Source: Eledone cirrhosa
Lineage: Eukaryota
Length of the DNA: 64,000 nt
Direction of reading: 5' to 3'
NCBI GenBank assembly: GCA_964016885.1
Contig: OZ024741.1
Location: 359,600,001 to 359,664,000 of the forward strand
Positions 20,243 through 62,625 of the stretch are shown here, in pieces; position 1 is the stretch's first letter, and each line of letters starts with the position of its first letter. The position numbers and the translations under genes were made by a program. The notes under the pieces are model-generated. The model saw nothing but the letters and a program-made list of their open reading frames with translations. It ran no database searches and was not told where the DNA came from.

Positions 20243-20317
20243 ATATATATATATAAATAGTTCCACAAAAGTTAGTTCACCATACCGAGAAATGTTACAC
20301 CTTATTTGGGTCCTCAG

Positions 20318-20360
20318 ACCGAGCTGAGGATCCGAATAAAGTGAAACATTTGTCCTCGGT
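20318..20360 (+). ncRNA. Minimal type I hammerhead-like motif in the right arm of an inverted repeat (20258-20386)
   Basis: ACCGAG-CTGAGGA-tccgaataaagt-GAAA-catttGTC^CTCGGT: perfect 6-bp stem I, intact core, weak stem II, short stem III, GUC triplet. Confidence 0.55.
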
Positions 20361-20807
20361 ATGGTGAACTAACTGTTGTGGAACTACTTCTACCAAACTC
20401 ACCCCATGGATTGAGTGTTCTACTACTATGGATATAACCCACCAGTATTCTATTATATACACTTCACACAAAGTAAAATATTTCGTTTTAATCATTTTCT
20501 AACCCAGAAAAAAGAGAGAAATAAATAAAAAGGGAAAAAAATTATTTTTCTTCCTAATAATCGTCTTTCTCCCCGTTTTCATATATATATATTATTAGCC
20601 GTCGAAACGGCTTGAGCTCAGCCGTCGGGGTCCTACTCGTTCCTATTACCCACTCTACTACCCTAAGTATTGAGTACTTTGGTGCGTTATGGTCCATCTC
20701 GTTCCTTACCACATTTCCTTCGTTTATTTATATATATATATATATATATATATATATAATGTGTGTATGTGTGTACCATAATGCACCAGAGTACATATAT
20801 GTGTGTA

Positions 20808-21093
20808 TCATCATCACTTTACGTCCGCTTTTCCCTGCTTGCAAGGGTGGGACGGGAACTGATTCTGGCTCGATTTCTACAGCTGGATGCCCTTCCTAAC
20901 ACCAACCTCATTTACAGTGAGTGCTGGGTGCTTTTTTGCCGTGGCACCTCCACGACCACTTTGCAGTGGAATGATAGAGACCCCAGTCCCTATCATCTCA
21001 TTTCTACAGCTGAGTAAACTGGAGCAATGTGAAATAAAGTGTCTTGCTCAAGGAAACAATACATCAACCGGTCTGAGAATTGAACTCACAACC
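20808..21093 (-). mobile_element. Truncated, internally deleted copy of the SINE at 6783-7222
   Basis: Near-identical body, hairpin and RTE tail. Confidence 0.8.
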
Positions 21094-21489
21094 AGTGTGT
21101 GTGTGTGTGTATATATATATATATATATATATATATATATATATATATACATACATACATACACACACACGTTTATGCACACACCCCCACACATTCAGAT
21201 ATACATATATATTAGTACTAATATAGAATATAAGAAAGGGGTCAGAGTAAGTAAATGAATGGATAAATAAATGAGTTGCAGTGAAATAAATACTAAGTCT
21301 TTTCAGTCAGGTTAAGTTACATCTAAGGACCAAAGGGTTGTATTGAGTTCTAGGTTGTGACGGTATAAACCTAAGAGATAAAGAATAAGATTTATAGAAA
21401 TTTATTCTAAAAATAAAAAAAAATTGTTGAGCCTAGTAATTCAGTCAGGGATTAGAGTTAAAATACGAATGGGAAATTATGAAAGAAAA

Positions 21490-22348
21490 ATTACATGAAC
21501 AGGATTGATAAGCGCAGCCAAGTTGGAAGTGGTATATTGACTGGCGGGTGTGAAATCAGTCGGCTGAAATTTACAGACGACATGGTGTTACTTAACTCGC
21601 CAAAAGATGATCGACTTGCACTCGATAGGTTTGATGCCGAGTGTTGCATGGCTGAAATGAAAATCAGTGCTGCGAAAACTGAGACGCTCTTCCGCTCAAG
21701 GAAGACTGTGCAGTGCACTCTACATATGAATGAAGTTCCACTGGAGCAGGTAGAGAAGTTCAAGTATCTCGGGGCCATGTTCACAAATGATGGAAGGCAA
21801 GAAGCTGAATTAAGTGCAAGAATTGCAGAAGCTGGTGCAGTAATGCGCCAGCTTCAGCATTCAGAGGAGGGAGGTAGACGTAAAAGCTAAACTCACTATC
21901 TTCAATTCAGTATTCATCCCAACCCATACCTATGGTCATGAATCTTGGGCAATGGCCGACAGAATATGATCGCAAATACAAGCAGCTGAAATGGGGTTCC
22001 TCCGAAGGGTCTTAGGAGTAATGTTACTCAATAAAATGTGTAGCTCAGAGATCCAAGAGTCACTCTCGTAGAGCTGCTACTTCTCCGAATTGAGAGATCA
22101 CAGCTCTGATACCATGGGCATGTGGTTAGAATGTCTCAGGAAAGAATCGCTGGACAGATTTTATGAGCAAAACCAACAGGCAGGAGACCCAAGGGTAGAC
22201 CCCAAGTAAGATGGTTGGGTAACATCCATGAGCTTGGCTGGTCATGCTTGGGGGTCCAGCCGGATCAATTAGAAACGGTTGCTTCTAACAGGACCCACTG
22301 GATGGAGTGTTTGGAGATTTTGCGCCACAACCCTCTCAGGAATAAGCG
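21490..22348 (+). mobile_element. RTE-clade LINE 3' fragment, Rex3/Expander-like
   Basis: SRLKFTDDMVLL, LDRFDAECCMAEMKISAAKTE, EQVEKFKYLGAMFTNDGR; later frames give TYGHESW and TGRRPKGRP; 3' end CGCCACAACCCTCTCAGGAATAAGCG plus an A-rich tail. Confidence 0.8.
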
Positions 22349-22689
22349 AAAGAAAAGAAAAAAGAAAAGAAAGAAAAAAGAAAGAAAAGAAAAAAGAAAA
22401 AGAAAAGGAAAAAGATAAACAAAAAAAGATAAAGAAAAAGAAGAAACTGATAATAATAATTGTTTCTACTTTCGGCACAAGGCCAGCAATTATCCCAGTA
22501 TATTACTGGTAATTTATTTTATCGACCCCGTAGGGATGAAAGGCAAAGTTAGCCTCGGCGGGATTTGAACTCAGACCATAAAGAGCCATAACTCTTTGCT
22601 GCAAAGCATGGCGTCTGACCCTCTACCGATACTGCCAATACACCGCCCTTAATAATAATTAATACTCAAAGTTCAGTAGGAGTACAATC

Positions 22690-22960
22690 AACAAGCTATG
22701 GGATAATGCAGAAACTTTAGGCTCAAGGCCAGCAATTCATTGCCATTCGTTTTTTGAACGAATGGCAATGATTGTGCCAACGTTCTTTAAATTTTGTAGC
22801 AGTAGCACCTATGTGTGAGTATACTCTGTTGCTAGTACTAATCCTACATTCATATACTATATTTTTAATGAGGCATATCCCTTCTAAAAGGCATGAGGTG
22901 GCTATCCAACAGTTACACATTTTTTCCATGAGTGGGGGGTAGGGGGAGGATTCTGTTATG
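22690..22960 (-). mobile_element. Penelope-like element GIY-YIG endonuclease remnant
   Basis: CNC...CLLEGICLIKNIVYEC...HIGAT...FKERWHNHCHSF, collinear with the better-preserved ORF at 59456-59923. Confidence 0.7.
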
Positions 22961-60290: not shown

Positions 60291-61295
60291 AACACACTCA
60301 CTGTTTGGTTGGTTTTCGCTTTTCGCTTCTGTGTCTTTTATATCGGTTAATTTAATTTATTCGGTCCTCAATGTTGCCATTGACTGACCAACGGTCAAAA
60401 ATACAGATACAATATAGACACAAACACATATATATAGTTTATCAAAGTTCTTTCATTGCACATCTGCAACATCGTCAGTGGTGCTATTGTTTCCTCCCAT
60501 TGCATTGTATTTTCTACGCCATCTTTATTTAGTCTGTTTATATATTTATTTATTTGTTTGTTTTTTTTGTCTTCTTTGCGCATGCGTTTGCGTGTGTGTG
60601 TATAGTGTTTTGTTTGATGTGTGCTCATGATTGGGTGACTGTGTATTGGTTAATGTATTCTATCTTTACTAGTGTGTGTTTATATCTGTTTGTTGTTATT
60701 CTGCTTGTGTATGTATGTATTTATTTATTTATTTATCTATTTATTTATTTATTTATTTATACTTCTCTTAGGTCAGTGTTGTTTGTTTGGGTGTTGTTAT
60801 TCCATTCATTTTTTCTGTTTAGCCTTGGCCTTCTAAGTTCTATTTCACTGGCCTCTCTGATTTGTCTATCTGCTGGGTCATTTCTATGTTTAGATATTAT
60901 TCTAATTTCTATGTTGTCTATGTTACCGTCGTGTTGTTGTCTGGCATGTTCGTATAATAATAATAATAATATATATATATATATATATATATATATATAT
61001 ATATATAATAAAATATAGAGAAAAATACTGCAGGTAGCACATGGATAACATGTAATAAAATGAGTCCCTCATCAGTGATTTGCCGACGATCATCGATATT
61101 TCATTGCATTATATATATAAGTATGTACACGTACATACATATATGGATACAGACGTACAGTAGTATGTATATATATATACATACATGCACACATATATAT
61201 ATGTACGTATGGATTCACCGAACATTTATTATAATGCTCGGTGTGTTTGTAAACAAACATCCCGTATTAAGCTGTAGTGTCCAGCAACCATCGTT

Positions 61296-61382
61296 GTTCA
61301 ACACTGACAAAGGAACGCTGTACTAGTTTCAAGCTTATTAGCTATCGTCATCAACGTATACCTTCCTGCCAGATTGTTGAAC
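61296..61382 (-). ncRNA. Hammerhead copy with a mutated core (AUGACGA), probably inactive
   Basis: Reverse complement of the 62063-62149 motif, with C3 changed to A. Confidence 0.6.
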
Positions 61383-61680
61383 GTATATACTTACCTTATG
61401 CATATTAACGGCTGAGTAGCCCAATTTGCATATCGAGTAGGTTAATCGGCCGGATGCACCGAAAACGATAAACGGAAAAAATGAAAAAATGAAACGAAAT
61501 TTCATTTCCCACTCTTAGTAAGGCTGTTACTTAAATATAAGTATGTACACGTACATACATATATGTATACAGACGTACAGTAGTATGTATATATATATAC
61601 ATACATGCACACATATATATGTACGTATGGATTCACCGAACATTTATTATAATGCTCGGTGTGTTTGTAAACAAACATCC

Positions 61681-61721
61681 CGTTGCTGACGATAGCTAAT
61701 AAGCTTGAAACTAGTACAGCG
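61681..61721 (+). ncRNA. Minimal type I hammerhead (5' part of stem I truncated by the inversion)
   Basis: CGTTG-CTGACGA-tAGCTaataAGCTt-GAA-ACTAGT-A^CAGCG. Confidence 0.7.
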
Positions 61722-62062
61722 TTCCTTTGTCAGTGTTGAACAAACGAGCAACGATGGTTGCTGGACACTACGGCTTAATACAGGATGTTTGTTTACAAAC
61801 ACACCGAGCATTATTATAAATGTTCGGTGAATCCATACGTACATATATATATGTGTGCATGTATGTATATATATATACATACTATTGTACGTCTGTATAC
61901 ATATATGTATTTACGTGTACATACTTATATTTAAGTAAGAGTGAGAAATGAAATTTCGTTTCATTTTTTCCGTTTATCGTTTTCGGTGCACCCGGCCGAT
62001 TAACCCACTCGATATGCAAATTGGGCTACTTAGCCGTTAATATGCATAGGGTAAGTATATAC

Positions 62063-62149
62063 GTTCAACAATCTGGCAGGAAGGTATACGTTGCTGATGA
62101 TAGCTAATAAGCTTGAAACTAGTACAGCGTTCCTTTGTCAGTGTTGAAC
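62063..62149 (+). ncRNA. Type I hammerhead with palindromic stem III (ACUAGU) and long interrupted stem I
   Basis: ACGTTG-CTGATGA-tAGCTaataAGCTt-GAA-ACTAGT-A^CAGCGT; stem I continues AAGG/CCTT, CTGGCA/TGTCAG and GTTCAACA/TGTTGAAC. Confidence 0.8.
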
Positions 62150-62285
62150 AAACAAGCAACGATGGTTGCTCGACACTACGGCTTAATACGGGATGTTTGT
62201 TTACAAACACACCAAGCATTATAATAAATGTTCGGTGAATCCATACGTACATATATATATGTGTGCATGTATGTATAGAAGCTGG

Positions 62286-62625
62286 ATTCTTATAGAATTC
62301 CAGTAATAATCAGGAGCTGATTATACAGAGCGATTGCCGGTCCAGCAGAAATTAGGTATTAGGATTGGTGCTCTGAAATAGTGATGTATACATGAATGTA
62401 TGATATGTATAGTATGTTTGGCAATATACTGTATGTTCAATTAAAAATATTTTGAAGACAGGTAGTACGTGGCTCTGATGATTGCTAAACAGCATGAAAC
62501 AGACTGTTAGCTTCTCTCCCTTCTTTTGCCGAAAAGAAGTAAGTGACATAGTCACTACTTTAAAACCGATAGCATATGGTCTTCAAAATGTTCTTAATTA
62601 AACATACGGTATATTGCCAAATATG
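62286..62625. mobile_element. Diverged relative of the 317-bp unit, in two divergent pieces
   Basis: 62286-62459 matches the unit in plus orientation; 62461-62625 matches its reverse complement (GTCACTACTTTAAAAC...GGTCTTCAAAATG...TTAATTAA). Confidence 0.75.
62471..62512 (+). ncRNA. Type I hammerhead with canonical C3-G8 core, homologous to the U3-A8 copies
   Basis: GGCT-CTGATGA-tTGCTaaacAGCAt-GAA-ACAgacTGT-T^AGCT. Confidence 0.7.

What the first reader, a model, noticed from the sequence alone, without database searches (positions are those of the whole stretch)
20258..62625. Four independent hammerhead-bearing insertions share the same divergent fold-back architecture
Seen: at 20258-20386, 37567-37798, 61114-62277 and 62286-62625 each element is joined to an inverted partial copy of itself, always with the ribozyme-sense strands pointing away from the junction. 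Penelope-like GIY-YIG remnants occur in the same window (22690-22960, 59400-60290). Established: Penelope-like elements carry hammerheads in their pLTRs and often show an inverted 5'-truncated pLTR. Inference: several non-coding ribozyme families here are mobilised by Penelope-type RT/endonuclease, forming a helper-parasite system.
Basis: inference. Interest (0 to 1): 0.72.

Follow-up and report, generated by a model that had tools for sequence, protein, structure and literature searches.

The report
Penelope footprint, two passenger retrozymes
The four mirror-image repeats are real and show the known insertion footprint of Penelope-type jumping genes: two are cut-short ends of protein-coding Penelope elements, and two are small protein-free repeats with a predicted self-cutting RNA motif that were likely pasted in by the same kind of enzyme.

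Summary
A (20258-20456) and B (37427-37798) are not non-coding families. They are truncated ends of protein-coding Penelope-like elements (PLEs) with Hydra-clade motifs; B has copies with a 740-aa open frame between two hammerhead ends. C (422-nt unit) and D (316-nt unit) are ORF-less tandem retrozymes.

In 112 genomic loci, 68 carry a divergent inverted arm and 3 a convergent one. Each family has two fixed 3' ends, and 42 of 46 classifiable pairs join one short to one tailed end, mostly in (TA)n. In 23 of 42 pairs neither arm is contained in the other, which favours two separate priming events over fold-back copying.

The head-to-head inversion, one-sided tail and TA targeting are published PLE features, and PLE mobilisation of retrozymes is a published hypothesis. 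This scan has also reported the same pattern on other DNA of this genome. No helper family for C or D was identified. Ribozyme activity, expression and locus-level long-read support were not shown.

The parts
20258..20317 (-). Family A inverted arm, short (S) end, in (TA)n; hammerhead core degenerate (GTAA for GAAA)
   Evidence: (L001)
20316..20456 (+). Family A forward arm with the tail (L end; tail 66 nt in the family); 3' end/pLTR of a coding Hydra-type PLE
20318..20360 (+). Predicted type I minimal hammerhead A: stem I 20318-20323 with 20355-20360, core at 20324, predicted cut after 20354
   Evidence: sequence
37427..37677 (-). Family B arm with the tail (L end) and a complete hammerhead motif (core at 37616); pLTR of a coding Hydra-type PLE
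   Evidence: (L031/L032)
37678..37798 (+). Family B opposite arm, stops in microsatellite before the 3' strand of stem I (core at 37749); shares a 5-nt deletion with the other arm
61115..61680 (-). Retrozyme C inverted arm, about 1.35 units, ends at the short (S) end in (TA)n; core changed near 61353
   Evidence: (L061)
61681..62277 (+). Retrozyme C forward arm, 1.4 units of the 422-nt repeat, hammerhead cores at 61686 and 62094; cut at unit position 182 where D begins
62274..62457 (-). Retrozyme D inverted arm (unit positions 107-285), no hammerhead inside
   Evidence: L091
62460..62625 (+). Retrozyme D forward arm of the 316-nt repeat, hammerhead core at 62475, cut at unit position 150
59456..59923 (-). 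GIY-YIG endonuclease remnant of another Hydra-type PLE family (CxCX5C linker), with its own 3' UTR, not linked to A-D
22723..23010 (-). Degenerate GIY-YIG fragment of a further PLE family; the closest other copy in the genome is 64-76% identical
48428..49540 (-). Tandem array (period 316-320) of a D-related unit, 73% identical to D, with a variant hammerhead core (U for C3, A for G8); no inverted arm seen

Best explanation
The four fold-backs are separate-family insertions that share one footprint, likely made by the reverse transcriptase/GIY-YIG endonuclease of Hydra-type Penelope-like elements; A and B are ends of such coding elements, and C and D are protein-free tandem repeats likely copied in trans. 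Shown: two fixed 3' ends per family, one short plus one tailed end per insertion, head-to-head joints at variable places, (TA)n targets, ORF contiguity for A and B, and no ORF in C or D. Inferred: the enzyme cuts both strands of a (TA)n tract. Each DNA end primes cDNA at one of two fixed internal sites of the RNA, both ending in TA. The two cDNAs stop early and are joined at their truncated ends, and the stretch between the two start sites becomes the one-sided tail. For C and D the template would be a multimeric or circular RNA, since arms can exceed one unit and run through the predicted cut site.
For: Orientation: 68 divergent against 3 convergent of 112 loci. Ends: A +69/+135, B +107/+190, C +245/+303, D +172/+202 from the first core base; 42 of 46 classifiable pairs are short+tailed, p 3e-9. 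In a tail-anchored sample of A, 15 of 27 had a divergent arm, 13 ended at the short end and none at the tailed end. (TA)3 at the forward end in 98 of 111 against 1006 of 5000 random windows. Non-nested arms in 23 of 42 pairs at 8 nt or more, 19 at 15 nt or more. B is contiguous with a 740-aa frame on both sides (L191, L192); A runs into the ORF end in L003, L009, L016, L019, L022, L024, and a sister subfamily has the full pLTR-ORF-pLTR layout. Hydra motifs DKT, RWR, CxCX5C, CxxC and CxH are present (criteria from PMC8557442 section 11). C forms a tandem array across two 9.9-kb stretches, longest ATG frame 96 aa; D's longest is 36 aa. In vitro a PLE protein cuts and extends both strands and starts at two internal RNA sites that bound the tail (PMC11167929).
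Against: No coding family shares ends with C or D: no similarity to A or B, and in the 92 ORF-centred loci of four protein searches plus 10 longer stretches, C and D appeared only as neighbouring insertions. 22 of 68 divergent pairs could not be classified, and 4 of 46 break the rule. 44 of 112 loci show no adjacent divergent arm, partly because of the 1.5-kb flanks. The window's own B, C and D each lack at least one canonical end. Paired arms share rare variants more often than chance (53 against 19.5 expected), which fits a common donor and is also what fold-back copying predicts. The 740-aa protein has no Pfam or PDB sequence match; its RT identity rests on motifs and on Atlas look-alikes carrying GIY-YIG, HTH_animal and RVT_1. 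A pre-set hairpin test at the eight ends passed at only 2, one end being mislocated.
Confidence: 0.75

Rival explanations
1. Self-priming fold-back: one cDNA folds back and copies itself, and the endonuclease trims one end to leave the one-sided tail (self-priming proposed in PMC3846280; endonuclease-made tail suggested in PMC8557442). Still PLE-driven, but with one priming event.
For: Arms of a pair share variants above chance (53 against 19.5). The window's B arms are identical and share a 5-nt deletion. Four A loci (L001, L006, L008, L028) share one junction at a small local hairpin.
Against: A fold-back copy must be contained in its template. In 23 of 42 short+tailed pairs each arm holds sequence that the other lacks, and in L037 the arms do not overlap at all.
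Confidence: 0.12
2. C and D are not true passengers but pLTR remnants of coding PLE families not sampled here, later amplified as satellites by unequal crossing-over.
For: Xenopus retrozymes are homologous to pLTRs (10.64898/2026.07.22.740005). Only 30 loci per family were read, out of 799 and 2306 candidates. C forms a long head-to-tail array on one chromosome.
Against: In dispersed copies the sequence upstream of the hammerhead is the end of the same unit (circular permutation), never an ORF. Fixed ends in (TA)n on many chromosomes imply insertion of the unit itself.
Confidence: 0.1
3. The inversions are read or assembly fold-back artefacts.
For: B's arms in the window are 111 of 111 identical around a 10-nt loop. 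One fetched locus (L121) is a large palindrome with near-identical flanks on both sides. No read set bridged the junctions by the tool's 31-base rule.
Against: Arms differ at 448 positions against 53 shared variants. They end at two different fixed sites with different flanks, in all four families. An 88-nt contig with no mismatch crosses A's junction (60 and 28 bases on the two sides), though possibly from the assembly's own sample.
Confidence: 0.03

Closest known systems
Hydra-clade C-terminal-endonuclease Penelope-like elements (Craig et al. 2021, PMC8557442; read: passages, sections 11 and 15)
   Same: Single ORF with C-terminal GIY-YIG, DKT, RW(K/R), CxCX5C, CxxC and CxH, no CCHH seen; hammerheads in pLTRs; (TA)n targets; inverted 5'-truncated copy; tail at one end.
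   Different: Tails of 66 and 83 nt against the 30-40 bp described; B is over 3.6 kb with a 1.3-kb 3' UTR against the usual under 3 kb; RWR for RWK; no tree was built.
Metazoan non-LTR retrozymes (Cervera and de la Pena 2020, PMC7229834, passages; Li et al. 2026, 10.64898/2026.07.22.740005, parts 1-3 of 5 and term search)
   Same: ORF-less tandem units of 316 and 422 nt, GC below 50%, one type I hammerhead per unit, co-occurring with PLEs, proposed to be moved by PLEs.
   Different: C and D carry minimal, PLE-style hammerheads (short stem II opening with U.U, palindromic stem III) and the PLE insertion footprint. Term searches of both main texts for 'inverted' and 'tail' found no description of that footprint; supplements were not seen. 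No sequence homology to a pLTR was found, unlike in Xenopus.
Adineta vaga Penelope elements (PMC3846280, passages)
   Same: Head-to-head inverted pLTRs are called the most frequent arrangement; tail on one inverted pLTR; mobilisation in trans through pLTR sequences.
   Different: That paper favours self-priming; the non-nested arms here favour two primings. Target-site duplications are not readable here because of (TA)n.
Anolis Poseidon PAc in vitro (PMC11167929, parts 1-2 of 4)
   Same: Both strands cut and extended, two internal start sites bounding the tail, AT-rich targets, hammerhead cleavage not needed for insertion.
   Different: Different clade; the tail lies in the ORF start there and in the 5' UTR in B; passengers and the inverted product were not tested in the parts read.
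L1 twin priming (recalled; seen only as search listings)
   Same: Two primers from one DNA break give an inverted, head-to-head product.
   Different: In L1 the second priming site is variable and the arms cover different RNA parts; here both sites are fixed and the arms overlap.

Membership tests
EN+ Penelope-like element (families A, B) | Single ORF with RT and C-terminal GIY-YIG endonuclease contiguous with the hammerhead end | tested here: met
   B: 740-aa frame between two hammerhead ends. A: ORF end 165 nt upstream of the core. The endonuclease part is homologous to the window fragment with the Pfam GIY-YIG hit. The RT call rests on motifs and Atlas, not on Pfam or PDB.
EN+ Penelope-like element (families A, B) | Partial tandem forming pLTRs, inverted 5'-truncated copy, tail at one end | tested here: met
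Hydra clade | DKT, RWK, CxCX5C linker, CxxC and CxH, no CCHH, (TA)n insertion | tested here: met
   Alignment A1: DKT, RWR (conservative variant), CxCX5C, CxxC, CxH; absence of CCHH judged by eye; (TA)n.
Hydra clade | RT phylogeny groups with named Hydra families | not tested
   No named reference proteins were fetched; no tree was built.
Hydra clade | Generally shorter than 3 kb | tested here: not met
   B exceeds 3.6 kb. The paper states this as a tendency only.
Non-LTR retrozyme (families C, D) | ORF-less tandem repeat of a few hundred bases with a type I hammerhead in each unit | tested here: met
   C: 422 nt, 21 exact cores counted in each of two 9.9-kb stretches. D: 316 nt, one dimer (L112) and circularly permuted copies.
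Non-LTR retrozyme (families C, D) | Canonical hammerhead (about 4-bp stem II, G10.1-C11.1 pair) | tested here: not met
   Stem II opens with U.U then 3 pairs in C and D; A has U.U then 2 pairs; B opens with A-U. They are minimal variants; the G10.1-C11.1 criterion is from PMC4209133.
Non-LTR retrozyme (families C, D) | Expressed as linear and circular RNA; self-cleavage | not testable with these tools
   Needs RNA data and an assay; see Tried and rejected.
Passenger of a PLE enzyme (families C, D) | Same insertion footprint as the coding elements | tested here: met
   C 13 of 28 and D 16 of 29 divergent; short+tailed in 7 of 7 (C) and 7 of 9 (D) classifiable pairs; (TA)n in 24 of 27 and 26 of 29.
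Passenger of a PLE enzyme (families C, D) | Shared recognition sequence or structure with an identified helper | tested here: inconclusive
   No sequence homology. A 3'-bulged hairpin 5-7 nt past an end is found at A-short, B-tailed and C-tailed (11 of 19 C units), not in D; the motif was defined after seeing C.

The most novel reading that the evidence does not exclude
Hydra-type Penelope enzymes insert every template, including small retrozyme RNAs of unrelated sequence, by obligate double priming: each end of the cut (TA)n target starts cDNA at a different fixed RNA site, possibly marked by a small bulged hairpin just downstream. This would give footprint evidence that animal retrozymes ride on PLE machinery, and a simple rule for the unexplained inverted-plus-tail structure.
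Probability: 0.5. Interest if true: 0.6.

Novelty: new member of a known kind. Interest (0 to 1): 0.33.

Why it matters
The layout itself is ordinary for Penelope-like elements. What is useful is that two protein-free ribozyme repeats carry the same footprint as coding elements in the same genome, and that one family still has open 740-aa frames. That makes two standing questions testable: which enzyme moves animal retrozymes, and how the inverted copy with a one-sided tail arises. The non-nested arms argue against the published self-priming model as the general route.

Tried and rejected
Rfam scan: swamped by microsatellite matches to miRNA models, with no hammerhead among the 150 listed of 399. 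The built-in inverted-repeat search over the whole window was swamped by microsatellites.

Sequencing runs: no RNA holder listed. Laying reads on C/D and on A was inconclusive for the exact loci. No piece bridged a junction by 31 bases on both sides, and many 'opposite strand' joints only reflect the two orientations in the reference.

The genome search with B's AT-rich tail returned nothing, so the unbiased sample exists for A only.

Pfam, PDB sequence and PDB profile searches of the full ORF gave nothing useful. The structure model was too poor to search (mean pLDDT 35.7).

Junction fixed at the hammerhead cut site: rejected. Breakpoints in B, C and D scatter. In A's tail-anchored sample they spread from +66 to -11, with a mild pile-up at -12..0 (6 of 27) and none sharp at the predicted cut near +32.

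End hairpin: the first pre-set test passed 2 of 8 (C-short mislocated; background 9-28%). A looser test passed 5 of 8 (background 17-38%). It is a lead only.

Intact-core counts (A 29, B 28, C 30, D 26 of 30) are biased by the query and are not used as evidence of selection; the first A count of 0 of 30 was a pattern error.

The window's GIY-YIG remnants as helpers: no link found. Lunse et al. on small PLE hammerhead variants was not held and was not read.
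Full report
Observation. The window lies in a 3.0-Gb genome rich in microsatellites. All four fold-backs are present: A at 20258-20456, B at 37427-37798, C at 61115-62277 and D at 62274-62625. In each, the strands carrying the hammerhead sense point away from the joint. The motifs are type I and minimal: a core, a short stem II opening with U.U (A, C, D) or A-U (B), a palindromic or near-palindromic stem III, and a 5-8 bp stem I. Five arm segments have a complete motif; A-, B+ and C- are damaged or cut, and D- has none. 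Rfam listed no hammerhead among 150 of 399 matches, so these are my readings, and activity is untested. C and D abut at non-canonical positions, probably after a deletion (inference), so three rather than four loci are clearly independent.

Families. Each unit was searched in the genome (1191, 864, 799 and 2306 candidates, 40 scored each, 30 loci fetched each). A and B are not non-coding. Upstream of A's hammerhead, six of 30 loci run into the end of an ORF with RT-like and GIY-YIG-like parts, and a sister subfamily about 81% alike has the layout pLTR-tail-ORF-pLTR. B has copies with a 740-aa open frame, the hammerhead and tail just before the start codon and again 1.3 kb after the stop (L191, L192). 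These proteins carry DKT, RWR, CxCX5C, CxxC and CxH, the marks of the Hydra clade in PMC8557442 section 11. Pfam and PDB gave no match to the whole protein. The Atlas gave look-alikes at 0.96-0.98 carrying HTH_animal, GIY-YIG and RVT_1. The model was unusable and no tree was built. C is a 422-nt unit found as dispersed, circularly permuted copies and as a tandem array; D is a 316-nt unit; the longest ATG frames are 96 and 36 aa. These are retrozyme-type repeats.

Footprint. After dropping 8 duplicate loci, 112 remained, including the window's four. Of these, 68 have a divergent inverted arm within 120 nt of the 5' break and 3 a convergent arm; by family, divergent in A 22 of 30, B 17 of 25, C 13 of 28 and D 16 of 29. 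Each family has two fixed 3' ends, giving tails of 66, 83, 58 and 30 nt, all ending in TA. Of 68 divergent pairs, 46 had both ends classifiable: 42 short+tailed, 3 short+short and 1 tailed+tailed; 22 had a cut or open end. One further B locus (L121), counted as without adjacent arm, is a large palindrome with two short ends and near-identical flanks, probably a secondary duplication or artefact. A second sample of A chosen by the tail alone gave 15 of 27 with a divergent arm, 13 ending at the short end and none at the tailed end. (TA)3 lies at the forward end in 98 of 111 loci against 20% in random windows. The junctions are not tied to the predicted cut site.

Mechanism. A fold-back copy must be contained in its template. 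In 23 of 42 short+tailed pairs the short arm reaches at least 8 nt further 5' than the tailed arm, and in 19 at least 15 nt (from BLAST boundaries). Each arm then holds sequence the other lacks and needs its own templated synthesis. This fits the in vitro result that a PLE protein cuts and extends both strands and starts at two internal sites bounding the tail (PMC11167929). Paired arms share 53 variants against 19.5 expected, with 448 private ones: a common donor is likely, and read fold-back is unlikely. Arms longer than one unit in C (for example L070, L090) need a multimeric or circular RNA; these two cannot be told apart here. I therefore infer double priming on a cut (TA)n tract by a Hydra-type enzyme, acting in cis for A and B and in trans for C and D.

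What is missing. No helper was tied to C or D. They resemble neither A nor B, and near PLE ORFs they appear only as neighbours. The window's GIY-YIG remnants belong to other families. Earlier scan notes suggested a hairpin past the ends. A 3'-bulged hairpin 5-7 nt downstream is present at A-short, B-tailed and C-tailed (11 of 19 C units; 0.0004-0.0017 per base in resampled sequence) but not in D, and the motif was defined after I had seen C. The pre-set test passed 2 of 8 and a looser one 5 of 8 against a 17-38% background, so it is a lead only.

Known work. PMC8557442 (passages, sections 11 and 15) describes the inverted 5'-truncated copy, the tail at one end, and (TA)n targeting by Hydra. 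PMC3846280 (passages) calls head-to-head the most frequent arrangement and proposes self-priming. PMC4209133 (passages) reports minimal hammerhead pairs 100-700 bp apart on opposite strands, from truncated PLEs. PMC7229834 (passages) and 10.64898/2026.07.22.740005 (parts 1-3 of 5) propose PLEs as the movers of animal retrozymes; term searches of their main texts showed no inverted-plus-tail footprint. Five paper searches listed nothing that reports it for retrozymes. Supplements were not read and may hold Hydra families of related animals. PMC6765202 was seen as passages only. This scan's earlier, unchecked notes report the same pattern several times elsewhere in this genome.

Verdict. Real, and largely a known PLE signature. 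Two of the four are ordinary truncated coding elements; two are new retrozyme families whose footprint supports a published but unproven link. Interest 0.33.

Noticed in passing
window 48428-49540 (-): Tandem array of a D-related unit of about 317 nt (73% identical) with four hammerhead-like cores that read U for C3 and A for G8, a covarying pair; no inverted arm seen.
   Followed up: partly
L191 and other full-length B copies, just 3' of the short and tailed ends: The sequence after the short end is nearly repeated after the tailed end, each able to form a small bulged hairpin; a duplicated start signal is possible.
   Followed up: partly
G000:C28:45630000-45649900 (L197, L198): Head-to-tail array of the C unit over both fetched 9.9-kb stretches, all on one strand.
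   Followed up: partly
L121 (G000:C2:151565000-151572000): 5-kb palindrome of a B element with near-identical flanks on both sides; secondary inverted duplication or assembly artefact.
   Followed up: partly
one search hit list: Dozens of the 150 scored B loci sit in open frames of 700-780 aa, pointing to a young, possibly still active family.
   Followed up: partly
window 20171 and 26275 (+); 61075 and 60478 (-); 15790 (-): Further hammerhead-core-like words in other repeat families, some followed by a stem and GAAA; not analysed.
   Followed up: no
window 44009-46732 (-), 38139-39777 (-), 55920-56621 (+), 19196-19621 (-): LINE-type RT and/or AP-endonuclease frames; 44009-46732 is a 907-aa open frame, and 38139-39284 has RT followed by a PHD finger.
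   Followed up: no
window 42970-44103 (-): 377-aa frame with C2H2 zinc-finger matches, overlapping the end of the LINE frame.
   Followed up: no
window 16867-18036 (-): 389-aa open frame with no Pfam match.
   Followed up: no
window 23460-23585: Near-perfect AT-rich palindrome, matched only spuriously by miRNA models.
   Followed up: no
L001, L006, L008, L028: The same A junction recurs at four loci, with short and tailed ends swapped between them: a small breakpoint hotspot at the 5' strand of stem I.
   Followed up: partly
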